From: Candidatus Auribacterota bacterium
GTDB lineage: Bacteria; Auribacterota; JAFGBW01; JAFGJP01
Assembly (NCBI GenBank): GCA_023144635.1
Contig: JAGLFH010000001.1
Coordinates: 10,324-74,323 of the forward strand
Length of the DNA stretch: 64,000 nt
Direction of reading: 5' to 3'
This document shows, piece after piece, positions 3,051 to 25,162 of this stretch (its first letter is position 1; every line of letters starts with the position of its first letter). Below the pieces are notes generated by a model. The model worked only from the letters and a program-made list of their open reading frames with translations. It made no database searches and was not told the DNA's origin. The position numbers were made by a program, and so were the translations under genes.

Positions 3051-3605
3051 ATGGAAAATAATAAAAAGATCCTATTACATGTTTGTTGTGCGACTTGTGG
3101 AGCCGGTTGTGTGGAAAGGCTGAAAGAGCTTGATTTCTCGGATATAGTCCTTTTTGAGTTCAATCCAAATATTTATCCAATAGATGAGTATGAAAGACGT
3201 AAGAAGGATATGATTTCTCTTAGTGAAATAAAAAAAATACCTCTTTATACGGGTGCTTATGACCATGAAGAATGGTTGAAGCAAATAGAAGGCTTGCAAA
3301 AAGAACCTGAAGGAGGTAAAAGGTGTGATGTTTGTTTTAAGCTAAGACTTAAAATGACAGCTAAAAAGTCTAAAGAACTTAATATTCGGTTTTTTACAAC
3401 AACTTTAACGGTCAGCCCTCATAAAAATTTTAAAAGAATAGAACTTATAGGTAAAGAAGCCGGTAAGGAATACGAAGTAGATTTTTACTCTACTGATTTT
3501 AAAAAGAATGACGGTTTTAAAAAAAGTATTGAAGCGAGTAAAAAATATGGATTTTACAGACAGAACTATTGCGGATGTGAATTCAGCATAAGAAAAAAAG
3601 CATAA
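3051..3605 (+). CDS. queH: Epoxyqueuosine reductase QueH
   Basis: LLHVCCATC, NPNIYP, EGGKRCDVCF, TTLTVSPHK and YRQNYCGCEFS. Confidence 0.93.
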   Translation: MENNKKILLHVCCATCGAGCVERLKELDFSDIVLFEFNPNIYPIDEYERRKKDMISLSEIKKIPLYTGAYDHEEWLKQIEGLQKEPEGGKRCDVCFKLRLKMTAKKSKELNIRFFTTTLTVSPHKNFKRIELIGKEAGKEYEVDFYSTDFKKNDGFKKSIEASKKYGFYRQNYCGCEFSIRKKA

Positions 3606-5872
3606 TGAATATTTCTATATTAAAAGAAAATACTATTAAAAAAATCGATAAATACAAAATAGAAATAGGTGTTGTGATCTTTCTTCTTCTCGGTGTTTTT
3701 ATACTTTCTTATTCTTCTTTTCCTGATATTTTAGAAAATTATGCGCTTGATTTAAGATTTAAGATGAGAAAGCCTGAAAAACAGCGTGAAGATATTGTTA
3801 TTATAGAAATAGCACAGGATACCCTTGATAAACTGAATAGCCGTTTTCCCATTCCAAGGCGCCATTACGCAAAACTGATAACTGCGCTAAATACATTTAA
3901 ACCAAAATTAATTGCTTTTGATATTGTTTTTGCAGAGCCGGAGAATTCTATAATGGATTTTCGGCAGTTCAAAAATTATATGGAAAAAGCTGCTGGTAAA
4001 AGTATTGATGAGAAGCTTCTTCGTAAAAAATATGATTCTCTTTATGAGTCCGGCGTGTTGTCAAAATTTGATGATGAGATATTCCGTATGAACATGAAGC
4101 AGGCAGGTAATGTTTTTTTACCTTATTATTTTACGATAAATGATTTTGCTGCTGATGATGCGGGCTTTTTTATTGCTGATGAAAAACAGGAAATTTATAA
4201 ACCTTTTAATGATGTAATTACAGATAGTGGTTTTATAAATGTTGATCTTAGAGAGGCCATAGTACGCAAGATACCTCTTTATGTTAAGCATAAAGGAAAA
4301 ATTTATCCTCATATTGCTCTTCAGCTTGCTTCATATGTTTTAGGGATCGATGATAAAGAAAAAGTAAAGATAGATAAAGGCATTGTTAAGTTGACAGGTG
4401 AGACGATCATACCTGTTGATGAAAATTACCAAATGAGAGTAAACTGGGCAGGGAAATGGACGAAAACTTTTAAACATTATTCGTTTATTGATATTATAAA
4501 TTCATATACGAGTATTATGAAAGGTGAAAAGCCTTTAATAGATCTATCTCAATTTAAAGATAAAATATGTATAGTCGGGCTTACTGAAACAGGCCTTGCT
4601 GATGCTAAGCCGGTTCCTGTAGAAGATATTATGCCTGGAGTCGGAACATGGCTGCATGCTATTAATACTATACTTACAAAAAGATTTATAAAGCATTACC
4701 CTGTGCAGGCGACTTTTTTGTATTCACTTGCATTAATGCTTACAGCAATACTCATCATAAAAAAATGGCAGCCTACAAAAAGCATTCCTTCAGTTATTAT
4801 TATGACTCTTCTTTATATTAGCTTTGTTTTTTTTGTGTTTAATAAAGCAGGGATCTGTCTTGATATTGCGCGTCCTACTTTACTTATTGTCTTAGGAGTT
4901 GTTGCAACTCAAAGTTATAACTATTTGAAATTGAAAGATATGATGGATCTTCAGCTTACGTTTGAACAAAAACTTGTTATGACATCAAAAACCGGAGTGC
5001 CTCTTGATAAACAAAAGATAGGAAAATATCAAGTCTTAGGTGAGGTAGGAAGAGGAGGTATGGCTATTGTATTTAAAGGCAAAGAGTTTTCAACAGGAAG
5101 GATAGTTGCTTTAAAAGTCATTAATCCTCAATTTTCATCTGATGTTACATTTAAAATAAGGTTTAAAAGAGAAGCAAAGGTGTTGATGAGGATAAAACAT
5201 AAAAACATTATCGAGATCTACGAGCTGAATAAGCAGAATGGTGTTTATTACTTTGCTATGGAATTTTTCCCGGGTAAAGGATTTAAGGAAAGATTTTCTT
5301 CTTTCAGAAAAAAAGGTGAAAAAGAAATAGTAAGTATTATTATTCAAATACTTGAAGGATTAAGAGCTTGTCATGAAAAAGATATAGTACATCGTGATAT
5401 TAAACCCGATAATATTCTTATTGATGATAAGAATATTATTAAGATAACTGACTTTGGGCTTGCGCGTCCTATTGAAGATGATTATTTAATGACGACTATA
5501 GGTCAGGCTGTGGGTACTCCTGCTTATTGTGCTCCGGAACAGATCATGGGTAAAAAGGTCACTGCTAAATCAGATATTTATTCTCTAGGGGTCTTAACCT
5601 ATGAAATGGTTGTAGGCAGCTTGCCGTATCAGGCAAAAACAATAGCAGATCTTGCCCGCCAGAAGGTGTATGGGAAGGTTACGCCGTTTCCATCAAATTG
5701 TGTTGTCTCTAAAGAGTTCCAGGACATAATAATGAAAATGCTTGCAGCTCAACCTCCAATGCGTTATCAAAGTGTTGATGAAATTTTGGAAGATTTTAAT
5801 AAAAAAGTAGAAGAAAAAGAGTCGATAAGTGATTCTGTTACTCAAACATGGGAACCTGAAGGACAAGAGTAA
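3605..5872 (+). CDS. CHASE2-domain membrane sensor with C-terminal Hanks-type Ser/Thr kinase
   Basis: N-terminal TM, CHASE2 motifs (IVIIEI, FPIPR, IAFDIVFAEP, MPGV), three TM helices, then GRGGMAIV, VALK, HRDIKPDN, DFG and APE. Confidence 0.9.
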   Translation: MNISILKENTIKKIDKYKIEIGVVIFLLLGVFILSYSSFPDILENYALDLRFKMRKPEKQREDIVIIEIAQDTLDKLNSRFPIPRRHYAKLITALNTFKPKLIAFDIVFAEPENSIMDFRQFKNYMEKAAGKSIDEKLLRKKYDSLYESGVLSKFDDEIFRMNMKQAGNVFLPYYFTINDFAADDAGFFIADEKQEIYKPFNDVITDSGFINVDLREAIVRKIPLYVKHKGKIYPHIALQLASYVLGIDDKEKVKIDKGIVKLTGETIIPVDENYQMRVNWAGKWTKTFKHYSFIDIINSYTSIMKGEKPLIDLSQFKDKICIVGLTETGLADAKPVPVEDIMPGVGTWLHAINTILTKRFIKHYPVQATFLYSLALMLTAILIIKKWQPTKSIPSVIIMTLLYISFVFFVFNKAGICLDIARPTLLIVLGVVATQSYNYLKLKDMMDLQLTFEQKLVMTSKTGVPLDKQKIGKYQVLGEVGRGGMAIVFKGKEFSTGRIVALKVINPQFSSDVTFKIRFKREAKVLMRIKHKNIIEIYELNKQNGVYYFAMEFFPGKGFKERFSSFRKKGEKEIVSIIIQILEGLRACHEKDIVHRDIKPDNILIDDKNIIKITDFGLARPIEDDYLMTTIGQAVGTPAYCAPEQIMGKKVTAKSDIYSLGVLTYEMVVGSLPYQAKTIADLARQKVYGKVTPFPSNCVVSKEFQDIIMKMLAAQPPMRYQSVDEILEDFNKKVEEKESISDSVTQTWEPEGQE

Positions 5873-5977
5873 TACATCTACTTCGTTAAGTTCAAAAGAT
5901 AACAACTTGCTGTATGGGGAAATACAGCTTCGTCGTCCTCTTTATCCTTGCCTCGTATATATATCACTCTTGTCCTT
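5859..5977 (+). repeat. Cruciform repeat family A, copy 1
   Basis: Core CATCTACTTCGTTAAG...TGTAT-n-ATACA..CTTCGTC...CTTGCCTCGT shared with copies at 22.4, 22.6 and 24.7 kb; outer arms 5859-5875 and 5961-5977 are inverted. Confidence 0.75.
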
Positions 5978-6086: not shown

Positions 6087-6400
6087 GAAACAACCCCTTA
6101 ATGGAGAGAGGGATTATTCGCGGCCCTTGTGCCGCTCACCCTTCACCTGATGGTTCAGGGCCTTCCTCCCGGTCGGAAGTTCAAACGCTTGTGTTTTGCA
6201 TCTCCGCCAGAGGCGGATCCGCCTTCGGAGGACATGGCGCATTTGTCGAACCCTTTATGGAAAGTACCAAAACCCAAGCATCAAATAACAAATTAGTAGC
6301 TTTCCTTAGAATATAAGATACTGAGATTGTCGAAGTAATTGATATTTGTTATTTGCTTTTTGGAGTTTATTTTGTGAAGCGAAATAGTGTGTTCTCATCC
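6087..6400 (-). repeat. tRNA-linked structured element ending in a copy of the tRNA-Ser 3' end
   Basis: + strand GGAGAGAGGGATT|ATTCGCGGC...GCCGCTCACCCT...TTCAAACGCTTG...TTTG|TCGAACCC...GTTCTCATCC; homologous to 24588-24888. Confidence 0.75.
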
Positions 6401-6513
6401 CTGTAAAAACAAGAAAACAGACGGCAGATAACAGAGGACAGATAAAAAGATTGTTGGTGATTTTTTTAATGTTTGGAAGGTTTTTCTGTTTTCTGTAAAC
6501 CTCATGATATTTA

Positions 6514-6659
6514 TTTTTTCGCTAGAGAGTAAAATAAATGATTCAGGTACAAGACGGAGTGGCATTTTTCAACCGGAGTGTATGTGTGAATACATGAGGA
6601 TTGGAAAATTCCAAACAACGCAGTAGATGAGTGATTTTTTTGCTCTCTAGCGAAAAAAA
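6514..6659 (-). repeat. Cruciform repeat family A, reverse copy abutting the tRNA-Ser 3' end
   Basis: Inverted arms TTTTTTCGCTAGAGAGTAAAA / TTTTGCTCTCTAGCGAAAAAA; reverse complement of core reads CATCTACTGCGTT...CCTCATGTAT..ATACAC...GTCTTGTA. Confidence 0.65.
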
Positions 6660-6660
6660 A

Positions 6661-6747
6661 CGGAGAGAGAGGGATTCGAACCCCCGGTCCCTTTCGGGAC
6701 AACGGTTTTCAAGACCGCCGCGTTAAGCCAGACTCTGCCATCTCTCC
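6661..6747 (-). tRNA. tRNA-Ser(TGA), CCA not encoded
   Basis: GGAGAGA acceptor stem, anticodon loop CTTGAAA, long variable arm GTCCCGAAAGGGAC, GGTTCGAATCC T-arm, discriminator G. Confidence 0.96.
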
Positions 6748-7029
6748 ATTAAAGGGTTGTTTCGTACTAATATTCTTTTCTTTTATATTACCAAAATGTT
6801 CTTTAATCCATGAACGTCCAACTCCGGATTTAAGAAAATTTTCTCTTTTCCTTGCTTCAGTGTAAGTATTGAAGATTTCCTTATGAATAAGTATCCAAGG
6901 ACATCCACTTTTTGTTGATCGTGTTTTACCTCTATTGTGTTCCTTTAAGCGATTTTCAATACTACCCTTAGTTGCTCCAATATAAAACTTATTTTTCTTT
7001 CTACTGAATAAAATATATGTAAAAGTCAT
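6709..7029 (-). CDS. Small stand-alone GIY-YIG nuclease; 3' end overlaps tRNA-Ser
   Basis: FTYILFS..KFYIGAT..RLKEHNRG..STK..PW..EARKRENFLKSGVGR matches the UPF0213/SLX1-like GIY-YIG pattern. Confidence 0.9.
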   Translation of the reverse strand: MTFTYILFSRKKNKFYIGATKGSIENRLKEHNRGKTRSTKSGCPWILIHKEIFNTYTEARKRENFLKSGVGRSWIKEHFGNIKEKNISTKQPFNGEMAESGLTRRS

Positions 7030-7035
7030 AATTTA

Positions 7036-7103
7036 CGCGTTTCCGCCAAAGGCGGATCCGCCTTTGGCGGAAAGCCAGACTCTGCTTTTCTCTCCATTAA
7101 AGG
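7036..7103 (-). repeat. Degenerate duplicate of the tRNA-Ser leader and 5' end with a 30-bp palindrome inserted
   Basis: CGCGTT[TCCGCCAAAGGCGGATCCGCCTTTGGCGGA]AAGCCAGACTCTGCtttTCTCTCCATTAAAGG versus CGCGTTAAGCCAGACTCTGCcaTCTCTCCATTAAAGG at 6719-6755. Confidence 0.85.
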
Positions 7104-7126
7104 CTTTTTCTGTAAGAAAAAATGAT

Positions 7127-7155
7127 ATATTATTGTAAAAAGCTATTTTTAGCAA
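7127..7155 (-). promoter_or_regulatory. Putative sigma70 promoter for the GIY-YIG/tRNA-Ser unit
   Basis: TTGCTA-N17-TAATAT on the minus strand; weak evidence in AT-rich DNA. Confidence 0.4.
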
Positions 7156-7457
7156 TATTTTTTATAAAATATATGCTATATATAAAATATAGGGTTATAT
7201 GAGAAAAAATTAAAATTCATGCCAAAAATGTCAATTTTATCCTTTTTTTCAAAAAAACGTTTAAATCACTTTACACATTGTTAAATTAAAAGTTGTTAGA
7301 TTTTATTGTTTTATAGGGTTTTTAGTATTTCCTATAGGGGAAATCAAAAGAAATAAGAAAATATCACAAAACTACTTTACTTTTTTTAAAAAATGTATTA
7401 TGTTTATATTAGATGAAAAAACCTGTAAAAAAACCCAAAAACAAAGGAGAAGGGGTT

Positions 7458-7853
7458 ATGTTAAGAGAAAAACGCGGTTTTACTATTGTTGAACTGTTGG
7501 TCGTAATTGCCATTATATTGATTTTGGCAGCTTTTGTTACTCCTGTAGTATCAAGAGCAAGAGCAAAAGCAAGAGCAACAGAATGTGTTAACAATGTTCG
7601 TCAAGGTGCTATGGCACAAATAATGTATGCACAGGACCATAATGATACAACTACAGCTCTTTGGGCAGATCTGCTTGGAGACTATTGTGATGCAACAATC
7701 CAGAGTTGTCCTAAAGCTGGTAACTATACTCTTACAGCAGTTAATTTAGACCCAGTAGCTGTTTGTATTGTTGGAGCAGCCGCTAACCATCCTACATTTC
7801 CAACTTGGTTTTCTGAAGGTACTACTGATGGTAGGGCAGTCTGGAAAGAATAA
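7458..7853 (+). CDS. Prepilin-type N-methylation domain protein (DUF1559-like pseudopilin)
   Basis: RGFTIVELLVVIAIILILAA..P...RARAKAR..C.NN.RQ...YAQD; start moved to ATG 7458 after GGAGAAGGGG (ORF track starts at 7413). Confidence 0.85.
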   Translation: MLREKRGFTIVELLVVIAIILILAAFVTPVVSRARAKARATECVNNVRQGAMAQIMYAQDHNDTTTALWADLLGDYCDATIQSCPKAGNYTLTAVNLDPVAVCIVGAAANHPTFPTWFSEGTTDGRAVWKE

Positions 7854-24587: not shown

Positions 24588-24888
24588 AAATAAAAAAATA
24601 CGCCCTGTTGGATTATTCGCGGCATCGTGCCGCTCACCCTTTTGATAAACGATAAAATCACATCTACTTCGTTAAGCTTTAAATCAGACTCCTCACTGTA
24701 TGAAAAAATACACCTTCGTCGTCTTCTTTTGCTTGCCTCGTATATGCGGTTTTCTCATTCATCACATACCGGGCTGTCACGCTTTAGCGTGCCATTCAAA
24801 CGCTTGTTTTTGCATCTCCGCCAGAAGGGAGGGCGGATCCGCCTTCTGAGGACATGCCGCGTTTGTCGAACCACAAGGTTCTCATCCA
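24588..24888 (-). repeat. tRNA-linked structured element ending in a copy of the tRNA-Lys 3' end, with nested family A and CCGCC palindrome copies
   Basis: TACGCCCTGTTGGATT|ATTCGCGGCATCGTGCCGCTCACCCT...TTCAAACGCTTG...TTTG|TCGAACCA..GGTTCTCATCC versus tRNA TACGCCCTGTTGGATTCGAACCA. Confidence 0.8.
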
Positions 24889-24905
24889 ACAGAAATAAAA
24901 AAAAA

Positions 24906-24978
24906 TACGCCCTGTTGGATTCGAACCAACGACCCATTGATTAAGAGTCAATTGCTCTACCAACTGAGCTAAGGGCGC
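24906..24978 (-). tRNA. tRNA-Lys(CTT), CCA not encoded
   Basis: GCGCCCT TAGCTCAGTTGGTAGAGC ATTGA CTCTTAA TCAAT ... GTTGGTTCGAATCCAAC AGGGCGTA cloverleaf. Confidence 0.96.
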
Positions 24979-25162
24979 ATTTATAAACGTGTTTAGTTAT
25001 TAGTGTTTCGTAAATTGAGCACTTCCGCCTTCGCAAAGCTACAGCGAGACAGGTCGTGCAATTATATTAAAAACGAAAAGCAGTTAATAGTTTTTTCAAT
25101 AATATATATTTTTTTCCTCATACGAACCACGAATCACTATTCGCGAGAAACGATTTTTTTAC

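What the first reader, a model, noticed from the sequence alone, without database searches (positions are those of the whole stretch)
6087..7155. GIY-YIG nuclease gene nested in a tRNA-Ser locus with both tRNA ends duplicated: candidate integrase-free tRNA-targeting element
Seen on the minus strand, in order: a weak promoter; a degenerate copy of the tRNA-Ser leader and first ~29 nt (7036-7103); the GIY-YIG ATG 7 nt later; the ORF running 39 nt into the intact tRNA-Ser(TGA), so its last codons GEMAESGLTRRS are tRNA sequence; a cruciform repeat; and a structured element ending in a copy of the tRNA 3' end. The gene is therefore bracketed by direct repeats of the tRNA 5' end. Established: GIY-YIG domains act as homing or mobile-element nucleases, and classical tRNA-integrating islands use an integrase and usually duplicate the 3' end. 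Inference: this is a minimal selfish unit that entered the tRNA 5' end and restored it, uses the tRNA promoter, and may mobilise the neighbouring repeats. No integrase or transposase is visible in the window.
Basis: partly seen in the sequence, partly recalled or inferred. Interest (0 to 1): 0.85.

Follow-up and report, generated by a model that had tools for sequence, protein, structure and literature searches.

The report
Tiny nuclease gene nested at tRNA-Ser
A very small nuclease gene sits directly in front of a serine tRNA gene, flanked by a partial copy of that tRNA and a GC-rich hairpin, and the same cassette recurs beside tRNA genes in many bacterial phyla and is present or absent between close relatives, so it looks like a little-known selfish element that lives in tRNA genes without breaking them.

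Summary
On the minus strand, 7114-7036 holds a copy of the tRNA-Ser(TGA) leader and 5' part, interrupted by a 30-nt GC palindrome. A 106-aa GIY-YIG ORF (7029-6709) runs 39 nt into the intact tRNA (6747-6661). A structured element (6252-6111) ends in a short copy of the tRNA 3' strand.

The arrangement is one member of a widespread family:
- Homologs lie within 200 nt of a tRNA or tmRNA on the same strand in 21 of 29 loci from relatives and 70 of 80 loci from many phyla. Only 0.54% of this genome lies that close to a tRNA.
- The ORFs are flanked by direct repeats of tRNA sequence in 21 of 26 and 62 of 74 loci.
- The upstream copy breaks in unpaired tRNA positions in 46 of 57 loci, and a GC hairpin follows in 37 of 57.
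- Congeners show empty sites with neither gene nor duplicate in three comparisons; in one genus 2 of 21 genomes are filled.
- The proteins cluster by tRNA type across phyla.

The protein is a minimal Slx1/UPF0213-type nuclease. The downstream element is a separate, known kind: an RtT-like tRNA-operon repeat, below Rfam's cut-off, with 11 copies in this genome.

Best reading: an integrase-free, homing-type selfish cassette. The nearest precedent is phage SegB. The mechanism is inferred, not shown.

The parts
7127..7155 (-). Weak promoter-like motif TTGCTA-17-TAATAT (8 of 12 matches)
   Evidence: Read. It is below the threshold of the scan, which called nothing here on this strand. Function is not shown.
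7096..7114 (-). Duplicated copy of the tRNA-Ser leader (about 19 nt)
   Evidence: D2: 7089-7114 against 6741-6766, 26 nt, 85%. Flank alignment scores 52 against a shuffle maximum of 30.
7072..7095 (-). Pseudo-tRNA-Ser 5' fragment (tRNA positions 1 to about 24, degenerate)
   Evidence: D4: 7067-7085 against 6720-6738, 89%; sequence. The same feature occurs in 57 of 74 homologous loci that have a downstream tRNA.
7042..7071 (.). Double GC hairpin or palindrome (TCCGCC-loop-GGCGGA, twice) inserted in the D-loop of the pseudo-tRNA
   Evidence: I7: 18-nt perfect palindromic arms. It is a conserved component of tRNA-Ser-linked cassettes from at least 5 phyla: 12 of 12 aligned sequences, 100% of cells paired, 2 pairs with compensatory change. 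Eight exact-pattern sites in this genome; 13 with the 12-nt core.
7036..7041 (-). Resumption of the pseudo-tRNA (AACGCG, the 3' side of the D-stem) after the hairpin
   Evidence: Compared with the intact tRNA sequence GGCTTAACGCG.
6709..7029 (-). GIY-YIG nuclease ORF, 106 aa. The domain is residues 1-79. Residues 80-106 are encoded by the leader and the tRNA.
   Evidence: Invariant Y5, Y16, G18, R27, H31, E63 and K67 in 20 homologs. PDB profile hits: UPF0213 BH0048 at E 2.8e-16 and SLX1 at about 1e-8. AF2 model: pLDDT 81.8 overall, residues 90-105 below 50. Foldseek's top hits are Slx1 and UPF0213.
6661..6747 (-). Intact tRNA-Ser(TGA); no encoded CCA
   Evidence: Infernal tRNA, 49.9 bits; ARAGORN 6660-6748.
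6514..6658 (.). Unique inverted repeat (24-nt arms, 97-nt spacer) starting right after the tRNA; role unknown
   Evidence: I3. No other copy in the genome.
6111..6252 (-). RtT-like structured element (GGTTCGAC ... GCGAATAATCC) with a nested copy of the GC double hairpin at 6203-6232
   Evidence: Own covariance model R1: 52.8 bits, E 2.4e-9. Its sister copy in C24 matches the full length of Rfam RtT RF00391 at 38.6 bits, below the gathering score of 45. Consensus fold has 24 pairs, 5 with compensatory change.
6087..6110 (-). Copy of the tRNA 3' acceptor strand (6110-6103), followed by an inverted copy of the tRNA leader (6102-6087)
   Evidence: D6, 12-nt exact repeat; I2, 26 nt, 92% complementary to 6738-6763.
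24610..24872 (-). Second RtT-like element, downstream of tRNA-Lys(CTT) (24905-24979). It ends in a copy of that tRNA's 3' end and carries the same hairpin plus an insert of about 150 nt.
   Evidence: R1 matches only the 3' part at E 0.0019.

Best explanation
The window holds one copy of a widespread, integrase-free selfish cassette that lives at tRNA genes.

Anatomy (shown): [partial copy of the tRNA 5' part, broken in a loop] - [GC-rich hairpin] - [about 80-aa Slx1/UPF0213-type GIY-YIG nuclease ORF] - [intact tRNA], all on one strand. A mirror form has the ORF downstream of the tRNA and a partial 3' copy beyond it.

Mechanism (inferred):
1. The nuclease breaks or nicks tRNA genes of the matching type in an unpaired loop region. 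The T-loop-type cleavage motif of phage SegB is the precedent.
2. Recombinational repair from a filled allele copies the cassette.
3. The partial tRNA copy and the intact tRNA serve as the two homology arms.
4. Because the cassette carries its own copy of the tRNA segment, the essential tRNA is rebuilt and no intron or integrase is needed.
5. The ORF is probably read from the tRNA transcript and released by RNase P cutting at the tRNA 5' end.
6. The 27-residue tail read from the leader and tRNA is incidental.

The downstream RtT-like element is a separate non-coding repeat family that duplicates tRNA 3' ends. It shares the locus and the hairpin module, but a functional link is not shown.
For: Shown by calls:
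1. Nuclease identity and conserved catalytic-type residues.
2. tRNA linkage. 21 of 29 relatives' loci have a same-strand tRNA or tmRNA within about 165 nt. 70 of 80 loci from Patescibacteria lineages, Bacteroidota, Ignavibacteriota, Omnitrophota, Elusimicrobiota, Planctomycetota, Chlorobiota and Pseudomonadota have one within 200 nt, all 70 on the same strand; 61 have the tRNA downstream and 9 upstream. Only 0.54% of this genome lies within 200 nt of a tRNA. In 5 cultured Bacteroidota genomes, the 13 best of 27 profile hits all lie in tRNA or tmRNA loci.
3. Direct repeats of tRNA sequence flank the ORF in 21 of 26 loci and in 63 of 75 loci, or 62 of 74 without the N-masked L087.
4. The upstream copy was found in 57 of 74 loci. 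It breaks in an unpaired tRNA position in 46 of 57, and a perfect GC hairpin starts within about 2 nt in 37 of 57, against 25 of 1140 random windows.
5. Empty against filled sites in congeners. G043 equals G012 plus 321 nt, made of hairpins, ORF and a 21-22-nt repeat of tRNA-Asp 1-21. At one tRNA-Arg locus 2 of 21 genomes are filled and 19 empty. G029 is filled and G037 empty.
6. Proteins cluster by tRNA type: Ser needs 7 changes against 30 when shuffled (0 of 500 shuffles as low). The window's SH-aLRT 95 clade has 17 of 18 rows tRNA-Ser-linked, from at least 5 phyla.
7. The window protein is 57-61% identical to copies in other phyla but 41% identical to the copy at the same tRNA in its only same-family relative.
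8. Precedent: phage SegB, a GIY-YIG enzyme, is enriched near tRNAs, cuts inside tRNA genes and drives tRNA-segB tandem amplification, with microhomology between the tRNA 5' end and the segB 3' end (PMC13096335: abstract, section 10 and passages).
Against: - No cleavage, transcript or transfer was observed.
- The protein has only the catalytic domain, so target recognition is unexplained.
- The intact tRNA in a filled allele still carries any loop target, so self-immunity is unexplained.
- In the window and in L048 the repeat includes 19-26 nt of leader. In G043 and G061 it starts at tRNA position +1. The insertion geometry is therefore not uniform.
- 11 of 57 breaks fall in stems by my rough positional classes. 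Unpaired positions make up roughly 57% of positions 8-60, so the loop bias is moderate, apart from the D-loop (29 of 57).
- Presence is mostly stable within genera, so movement is not frequent. A precise deletion between the repeats would mimic an empty site, so gain and loss cannot be told apart.
- No copy was found in phages or plasmids, so no vector is known.
- The window's own locus has no close relative with an empty syntenic site. G001 is filled. G002 is empty, but synteny was not shown.
Confidence: 0.6

Rival explanations
1. Host-serving or domesticated gene. The small Slx1-like nuclease is a normal partner of tRNA operons, for example clearing R-loops or folded DNA at highly transcribed tRNA genes, or acting on tRNA transcripts. 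The partial tRNA copies and hairpins would be scars of its activity or regulatory leaders, not parts of a mobile unit.
For: - Tight same-strand abutment to tRNAs across phyla.
- Presence mostly conserved within genera: g8 4/4, g12 4/4, g14 2/2.
- The family is the Slx1/YhbQ/YazA type, which includes cellular structure-specific nucleases (passage in PMC7017083).
- A TrmH-type fusion suggested RNA metabolism to Dunin-Horkawicz et al. (passage).
- This genome has partial tRNA copies at 11 or more of 38 tRNAs but only 3 GIY-YIG genes.
Against: - Patchy distribution: 31 of 60 relatives, with 1-5 copies each, at different tRNAs.
- Copies with in-frame stops.
- Clean presence or absence between congeners together with the repeat.
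- Cross-phylum clades tied to tRNA type rather than to taxonomy.
Confidence: 0.15
2. The repeats are the primary agents. REP-like GC hairpins and RtT-like elements, moved by other enzymes such as Y1/HUH transposases or arising by replication slippage or template switching at tRNA genes, create the partial tRNA duplications. The GIY-YIG ORF is a passenger that happens to persist between repeats.
For: - The hairpin occurs alone in intergenic sites of this and 4 other genomes, away from tRNAs.
- 8 Y1_Tnp matches in the genome.
- RtT-like elements duplicate tRNA 3' ends without any ORF.
- Solo pseudo-tRNA plus hairpin without an ORF at tRNA-Asn (C30) and a split pseudo-tRNA-Gln (C18).
- An inverted leader copy at 6087-6102 suggests template switching.
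Against: - The hairpin type co-varies with the protein clade and sits at the same junction in 12 of 12 tRNA-Ser-clade cassettes from several phyla.
- The ORF keeps its catalytic residues.
- The empty-against-filled difference is ORF, hairpin and repeat together.
- The exact hairpin pattern is found in only 5 of 61 genomes of the phylum, whereas GIY-YIG cassettes are in 32 of 61.
Confidence: 0.12
3. Decayed remnant of a classical integrase-mediated tRNA island. The att-like tRNA repeats would be left after loss of the integrase and cargo.
For: - This genome has 14 tyrosine recombinase matches. Two lie beside tRNAs (C30 after tRNA-Asn; C39 near tRNA-Ser(gga)).
- 3'-end repeats, as at RtT-like elements, resemble attL and attR.
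Against: - No integrase on the window's contig.
- The cassette repeat is the tRNA 5' part.
- The whole insertion is about 320 nt in the clean congener comparison.
- The same compact architecture recurs in 57 of 74 loci.
Confidence: 0.05

Closest known systems
Phage SegB, a free-standing GIY-YIG homing endonuclease in the tRNA gene cluster of T4/T6 (PMC2330249: search listing and start of abstract only; PMC13096335: abstract, section 10 and passages)
   Same: - A GIY-YIG nuclease gene lies among tRNA genes, with a statistically significant tRNA association.
- It cuts inside tRNA genes. The published motif RAWTSGAAC is, by my own reverse-complementing, GTTCSAWTY, which is T-loop-like.
- It generates tandem tRNA-plus-nuclease repeats, with microhomology between the tRNA 5' end and the nuclease gene's 3' end.
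   Different: - SegB is a phage protein with extra domains.
- The window protein has the catalytic domain only, is of the Slx1/UPF0213 type, scores 19 bits on the group-I-intron endonuclease model against a cut-off of 56, and has no phage match.
- The cassettes described here are chromosomal. They carry a partial tRNA copy and a conserved hairpin, and they occur across many bacterial phyla.
UPF0213 / YhbQ / YazA, bacterial Slx1-like minimal GIY-YIG proteins (PDB 1ZG2, 1YWL)
   Same: Same domain and size. Best sequence and fold matches. Described as the minimal stand-alone form of the domain (passage in PMC1564403).
   Different: The passages I read report no link to tRNA genes. In 5 Bacteroidota genomes the more distant minimal GIY-YIG paralogs (14 of 27 hits) are not near tRNAs, so tRNA nesting defines a subfamily.
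RtT RNA / rttR repeats of the E. coli tyrT operon (Rfam RF00391)
   Same: For the element at 6111-6252 and its 10 sister copies:
- It lies directly downstream of a tRNA and ends in a copy of that tRNA's 3' end.
- Tandem units occur (C6).
- It shares the motifs GGAUGAGAAC, GGUUCGA, GCCCGAAGGG and CGAGUAAUCC, and the closing stem, in a full-length alignment.
   Different: - Scores are below Rfam's gathering score: best 38.6 against 45, with no hit over the cut-off in 61 genomes.
- The window copy is split by a hairpin insertion and scored nothing at E <= 1.
- The lineage is far from enterobacteria.
- The function of RtT itself is unknown (passage in 10.1101/2024.07.17.603846). Older RtT papers are recalled, not read.
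Integrase-borne tRNA islands and cis-mobilisable att-flanked elements
   Same: They target tRNA genes and keep the tRNA intact by carrying a replacement segment, which leaves a direct repeat.
   Different: They use a tyrosine recombinase and usually the 3' part of the tRNA. Here there is no recombinase, the whole unit is about 0.3 kb, and the 5' part is duplicated.
REP/RAYT and IS200/IS605 hairpin elements
   Same: Short GC hairpins are dispersed in the genome, and hairpins sit at element ends next to a short target.
   Different: Those use HUH Y1 transposases and make no long duplications. No such gene adjoins the cassette.

Membership tests
GIY-YIG nuclease superfamily (Pfam PF01541) | Domain match above the curated cut-off | tested here: met
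   52.4 bits against 22.6, E 6.4e-14, residues 2-68.
GIY-YIG nuclease superfamily (Pfam PF01541) | Conserved Tyr, Tyr-x-Gly, Arg, His and Glu positions. That these are the catalytic positions is recalled, not taken from a call. | tested here: met
   Y5, Y16, G18, R27, H31, E63 and K67 are invariant in 20 homologs.
Slx1 / UPF0213 minimal GIY-YIG | Closest sequence and fold relatives are UPF0213 and Slx1, with no accessory domain | tested here: met
   1ZG2 at E 2.8e-16, 1YWL at 1.6e-13, SLX1 from 4e-9 to 4e-7. Foldseek's top ranks are Slx1 and UPF0213, all with E above 0.001. The model folds only in residues 1-79.
Free-standing homing endonuclease gene (SegB-like) | Presence or absence between close relatives with sharp boundaries at a conserved target gene | tested here: met
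   Shown for family members, not for the window's own locus.
Free-standing homing endonuclease gene (SegB-like) | Site-specific cleavage of the allele that lacks the gene | not testable with these tools
   Needs biochemistry.
Free-standing homing endonuclease gene (SegB-like) | DNA-binding domain appended to the catalytic domain, and sequence kinship to intron or Seg endonucleases | tested here: not met
   About 80-aa domain only. TIGR01453 scores 19.1 bits against a cut-off of 56. No PHROG match. No phage match.
RtT RNA (RF00391), for 6111-6252 | Score at or above Rfam's gathering threshold | tested here: not met
   The window copy has no hit at E <= 1. The best sister copy scores 38.6 against 45.
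RtT RNA (RF00391), for 6111-6252 | Lies just downstream of a tRNA, ends in a copy of that tRNA's 3' end, and can be tandem | tested here: met
   8 of 11 copies lie directly after an intact tRNA. C24 has a 56-nt perfect repeat and C6 has two 183-nt units. The window copy keeps only 8-12 nt of the 3' strand.
Integrase-mediated tRNA island | Tyrosine recombinase gene within the repeat-bounded element | tested here: not met
   No PF00589 match on contig C1. There is no room for one in the unit of about 0.4 kb.
REP/RAYT or IS200/IS605 | Y1 HUH transposase associated with the hairpins | tested here: inconclusive
   8 PF01797 matches in the genome, none on C1. Action in trans is not excluded.

The most novel reading that the evidence does not exclude
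The transcript of [tRNA 5' fragment + conserved double hairpin] is a guide-plus-scaffold RNA for the 80-aa nuclease. The fragment would pair with the tRNA gene and set the cut where homology ends, that is, in the loop. Each insertion would automatically capture a new guide from its target. That would be a self-programming, RNA-guided homing system built on a minimal GIY-YIG domain.

This reading is compatible with several observations: the break directly abuts the hairpin, the hairpin type co-varies with the protein clade, there is no DNA-binding domain, and the proteins cluster by tRNA type. No result tests it. In the mirror form (tRNA upstream of the ORF) the hairpin lies downstream of the ORF, which fits this reading less easily.
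Probability: 0.05. Interest if true: 0.95.

Novelty: new variant of a known kind. Interest (0 to 1): 0.78.

Why it matters
If the reading holds, many bacterial phyla carry a very small selfish element of about 0.3 kb. It colonises essential tRNA genes without an integrase, transposase or intron, and keeps the tRNA whole by bringing a duplicate segment.

This would matter in four ways:
- It gives a function and a target to a subfamily of the uncharacterised UPF0213/Slx1-like proteins.
- It explains part of the pseudo-tRNA fragments and GC hairpins that clutter tRNA loci. In this genome 11 or more of 38 tRNAs are affected.
- It extends the recent phage SegB finding, that a GIY-YIG nuclease remodels tRNA loci, to cellular chromosomes.
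- It offers a possible origin for RtT-type repeats, whose role in E. coli has been open for decades.

It also flags an annotation hazard: ORFs that end inside tRNA genes.

Tried and rejected
- **tmRNA-like or permuted tmRNA reading of 6087-6260:** rejected. ARAGORN finds the true tmRNA at C37 and Rfam gives no tmRNA hit.
- **Hammerhead-like reading of GGATGAGAACC...GGTTCGAC:** rejected. There is no Rfam ribozyme hit in 5 loci at E <= 0.1, and the core does not fit. The hammerhead consensus is recalled.
- **Small coding frame in 'module C' (5878-5965):** the frames are not conserved between the two copies (reading).
- **IS91-type CTTG/GTTC target idea:** the junctions are not uniform. The IS91 facts are recalled.
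- **Phage and plasmid carriers:** no match.
- **Model R1 over 100 homolog loci from other lineages:** only 2 weak hits (E 0.31 and 0.78), so this RtT-like subtype does not generally accompany the cassettes.
- **R1 and RF00391 over 60 relatives:** only weak hits, in G024 and G036, and in G024 and G003.
- **Expression:** no RNA holder was listed.
- **Read laying on 4 DNA runs of one study:** the contigs break at the tRNA and at the hairpin. The one joint (6252 to 7042) comes from contigs of the tRNA-Lys copy of the hairpin. Nothing could be learned on empty alleles.

**Literature.** The searches were:
- GIY-YIG, tRNA genes, free-standing
- GIY-YIG, tRNA, UPF0213
- GIY-YIG, tRNA gene, upstream, Bacteroidetes, hairpin
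- GIY-YIG, tRNA-Ser
- UPF0213, YhbQ, COG2827, YazA (poorly chosen; 'yaza' matched names)
- RtT, tyrT, tRNA
- homing endonuclease, tRNA gene, partial duplication, bacterial

None listed a paper describing chromosomal minimal GIY-YIG genes nested at tRNA genes with partial tRNA copies. This covers only the open library searched. Supplementary files were not asked for. The supplementary data of PMC13096335 on segB-tRNA neighbourhoods might bear on overlap, though its section 10 says only phage and archaeal-virus proteins were analysed. In PMC10542128 the latest version no longer holds 'RtT'.
Full report
**What is in the window.** All coordinates are read on the minus strand. The intact tRNA-Ser(TGA) lies at 6747-6661 by Infernal (49.9 bits) and at 6748-6660 by ARAGORN. 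A 106-aa ORF (7029-6709) ends 39 nt inside it. Its last 12 codons are tRNA sequence and its stop codon is the TGA anticodon.

Upstream, 7114-7072 repeats the 19-nt leader and tRNA positions 1 to about 24 (D2 and D4). The flank alignment scores 52, against at most 30 in 100 shuffles. The copy is interrupted by a 30-nt GC palindrome (7071-7042) and resumes for 6 nt (AACGCG) before the ATG.

After the tRNA come three features:
- a unique 24-nt inverted repeat (6658-6514);
- a structured element (6252-6111);
- 8-12 nt of the tRNA 3' strand, followed by an inverted copy of the leader (6110-6087; D6 and I2).

The promoter scan called nothing upstream on this strand. No tyrosine recombinase or Y1 transposase match lies on the contig.

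**The protein.**
- Pfam GIY-YIG matches with E 6.4e-14.
- In 20 homologs Y5, Y16, G18, R27, H31, E63 and K67 never vary.
- A profile of the family hits the solved UPF0213 proteins BH0048 (E 2.8e-16) and EF2693, then SLX1.
- The AlphaFold model (pLDDT 81.8) folds in residues 1-79 and is disordered from about residue 90.
- Foldseek ranks Slx1 and UPF0213 first, ahead of I-TevI and UvrC. All E-values are above 0.001.
- NCBIfam's intron-endonuclease model scores far below its cut-off. There is no PHROG, phage or plasmid match.

This is therefore a minimal Slx1-type nuclease domain with an incidental tail read from the leader and tRNA.

**Linkage to tRNA genes.**
- This genome's second homolog lies 117 nt after tRNA-Cys. 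A third, more divergent copy follows tRNA-Asp.
- Of 60 relatives (only one in the same family), 31 have homologs.
- Of the 29 loci fetched from relatives, 21 have a tRNA (19) or tmRNA (2) on the same strand within about 165 nt. Several of the 8 without one end at contig edges.
- A scan of species-representative genomes found 562 relatives. Of the best 80 loci, from at least eight phyla including cultured Flavobacteriaceae, 70 have a same-strand tRNA within 200 nt: 61 downstream, often overlapping, and 9 upstream.
- Only 0.54% of this genome lies within 200 nt of a tRNA.
- As a less selected sample, all 27 profile hits in 5 Bacteroidota genomes were examined. The 13 best (E <= 6e-17) all lie in tRNA or tmRNA loci; 11 are within 200 nt and 2 are second tandem copies. 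The 14 weaker hits have no tRNA within 600 nt.

tRNA nesting thus marks a subfamily, not all minimal GIY-YIG genes.

**The recurring architecture.**
- Flank-against-flank alignment beats every one of 100 shuffles in 21 of 26 loci and in 63 of 75 loci. One of the 63, L087, is an artefact of N runs, which leaves 62 of 74. The repeats are tRNA sequence.
- In 57 of 74 loci with the tRNA downstream, a copy of tRNA positions 1-12 (at least 10 of 12 matches) lies 150-480 nt upstream.
- Its homology first breaks in the D-loop (29), anticodon loop (7), linker 8-9 (7), T-loop (2) or position 26 (1). That is 46 of 57 in unpaired positions, with 11 in stems by my rough classes.
- A perfect GC-rich hairpin starts within about 2 nt of the break in 37 of 57, against 25 of 1140 random windows.
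- In some loci the pseudo-tRNA resumes after the hairpin and runs to the T-loop, where the ATG sits.
- In the mirror form the ORF follows the tRNA, and a partial 3' copy with a hairpin in its T-loop lies beyond it.
- A copy of the tRNA 3' end lies within 700 nt downstream for 27 of 110 tRNAs in these loci, against 0 with a reversed probe. Two of the 27 are matches to a neighbouring tRNA.

**The window's palindrome.** It is the conserved double hairpin of the tRNA-Ser clade. In 12 of 12 aligned cassettes from Patescibacteria lineages, Planctomycetota, Omnitrophota, Pseudomonadota and unnamed MAGs it directly follows the break. The break reads ...CTTG in the anticodon loop or ...GGTTG in the D-loop. 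All 143 cells pair, and 2 pairs show compensatory change. The exact pattern occurs at 8 sites in this genome and in 4 of 60 relatives. The solo copies examined are intergenic and away from tRNAs.

**Presence and absence.**
- G043 (filled) and its congener G012 are 92-93% identical in the flanks. G012 has the bare tRNA-Asp. G043 has 321 nt more: two hairpins, the ORF and a 21-22-nt repeat of tRNA positions 1-21.
- At one tRNA-Arg(ACG) locus in the genus of G061, 2 of 21 genomes are filled and 19 have the upstream gene abutting the tRNA.
- G029 is filled. G037 has the identical tRNA-Ser(CGA) without the gene or the copy.
- For the window's own tRNA, the only same-family genome (G001) is also filled. 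It has an in-frame TAG and a 12-nt 5' repeat seen by eye, whose alignment score did not beat the shuffles.
- The same-order genome G002 has tRNA-Ser(TGA) with neither gene nor copies. Synteny was not shown.

**Phylogeny.** On a quick tree of 109 rows and 79 columns, tRNA-type labels need 41 changes, against 67 when shuffled (0 of 200 shuffles as low). For Ser the figures are 7 against 30 (0 of 500). The window sits in an SH-aLRT 95 clade of 18 rows, of which 17 are tRNA-Ser-linked and the 18th has N-masked flanks, drawn from at least 5 phyla. Many forks are unresolved and relatives are not independent. The apparent closeness to L064 is inflated by tRNA-encoded residues. By tblastn the window protein is 57-61% identical over residues 1 to about 80 to copies in other phyla, but 41% identical to G001's copy.

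**The downstream element.** A clean sister copy after tRNA-Ser(GCT) (C24) is bracketed by a perfect 56-nt repeat, made of the tRNA 3' 17 nt plus 39 nt of flank. Two 183-nt tandem units follow tRNA-Pro. Five compact copies fold into 24 consensus pairs, 5 with compensatory change.

A model built from them finds 11 copies in this genome:
- 8 lie directly after intact tRNAs: Ser-TGA, Lys-CTT, Pro-TGG (two), Ser-GCT, Gln-TTG, Leu-CAG and Met;
- 2 lie between orphan tRNA 3' fragments;
- 1 is an orphan.

Only 2 weak hits turned up in 60 relatives. Rfam aligns the C24 copy to the whole RtT model (RF00391), with shared motifs and closing stem, at 38.6 bits. That is below the gathering score of 45. No genome of the 61 reaches the cut-off, and the control rings only in E. 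coli. I therefore call it RtT-like, not a certified member. The window copy carries the GC hairpin inside its first stem-loop.

In this genome 11 or more of 38 tRNAs have partial copies nearby.

**How it most likely works.**

Shown:
- the anatomy;
- the tRNA linkage;
- the repeats and where they break;
- the insertion/deletion polymorphism;
- the conserved nuclease residues.

Inferred:
- the nuclease breaks tRNA genes in a loop region;
- repair from a filled allele copies hairpin, ORF and tRNA segment, with tRNA sequence as homology on both sides;
- expression rides on the tRNA transcript.

The precedent is SegB. It is enriched near tRNAs in phages, cuts within tRNA genes at a motif that I read as T-loop-like, and produces tRNA-segB repeats with tRNA 5'/segB 3' microhomology (PMC13096335: abstract, section 10 and passages).

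Open points are target recognition by a bare catalytic domain, self-immunity, the role of the hairpin (DNA cruciform target, site disruption, or mRNA end protection), and the variable outer end of the repeat.

**Rivals.**
- A host-serving tRNA-operon nuclease.
- Repeats as the primary agents, with the ORF as a passenger.
- A decayed integrase island.

Evidence for and against each is given in their own sections.

**Novelty.** Seven literature searches listed no description of this chromosomal cassette. The 2006 survey of the superfamily treats prokaryotic Slx1-like proteins as minimal stand-alone domains, and the passages I read give no tRNA-gene context. I rate it a new variant of a known kind, namely free-standing homing-type nuclease genes at tRNA loci.

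**Limits.**
- There is no experiment and no RNA data.
- The proteins are short and the tree is weak.
- Positional classes for the breaks are approximate.
- The 80 loci are the best matches to one peptide pattern.

Noticed in passing
window 24610-24872 (minus), downstream of tRNA-Lys(CTT) 24905-24979: A second RtT-like element ends in a 28-nt copy of the tRNA-Lys 3' end and flank. It carries the GC double hairpin with an extra AGGGAG-type insertion, and an insert of about 150 nt in its middle.
   Followed up: partly
window 5920-5960 and window about 24706-24745 (C1:35029-35068): A 41-nt stretch, 90% identical ('module C'), lies about 130 nt beyond the Ser RtT-like element but inside the Lys one. 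Frames are not conserved between the two copies. Its nature is unknown.
   Followed up: partly
G000:C57:46353-46800 (L012): The second GIY-YIG gene lies 117 nt after tRNA-Cys(GCA). It is bracketed by 71-nt direct repeats that are not tRNA sequence but structured modules (CTCCGTAGTCTTGCGGA...GAAGGCGGACAA), starting 7 nt after the tRNA.
   Followed up: partly
G000:C24:138960-139500 (L154): A third, divergent GIY-YIG-like ORF follows tRNA-Asp(GTC). Beyond it lies a partial 3' copy of that tRNA holding two hairpins. The protein search from the window ORF missed it at E <= 0.001.
   Followed up: partly
G000:C18:3680-4120 (L155) and G000:C30:70870-71080 (L156): ORF-less remnants. A pseudo-tRNA-Gln(CTG), with 34 nt of leader duplicated, is split by an insert of about 215 nt in its D-loop. 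A pseudo-tRNA-Asn 5' copy with a single TCCGCC hairpin lies 96 nt upstream of the intact gene.
   Followed up: no
L024 (G008:C70), about 60 nt upstream of tRNA-Pro(CGG): A unit in which the ORF appears deleted between its first and last codons (ATGTATTAT joined to TATTCGGGGCG). It sits next to a full cassette, which suggests tandem units and internal loss.
   Followed up: no
L031, L033 (G060, G022) and G064:C30:77777-79186 (L182): Members of the same nuclease subfamily lie 46-152 nt downstream of tmRNA genes. No flanking repeat was detected in L031 or L033.
   Followed up: no
window 7007-7073, in the metagenome runs X1-X4: Summed contig depth over the hairpin is about 190-300, against about 8-15 for the flanks. 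Over the tRNA it is above 900. The hairpin motif is therefore abundant in many contigs of that community.
   Followed up: no
G000:C30:71527-71982 and G000:C39:40376-40909: Tyrosine recombinase matches lie next to tRNA-Asn and near tRNA-Ser(GGA). The genome therefore also holds classical tRNA-associated integrase elements.
   Followed up: no
window 3605-5872 (+) and 7413-7853 (+): The neighbours of the locus are a 755-aa ORF whose C-terminal half looks like a Ser/Thr protein kinase, and a 146-aa ORF with a prepilin-type N-terminal segment. Both were judged by eye from the translations and not searched.
   Followed up: no
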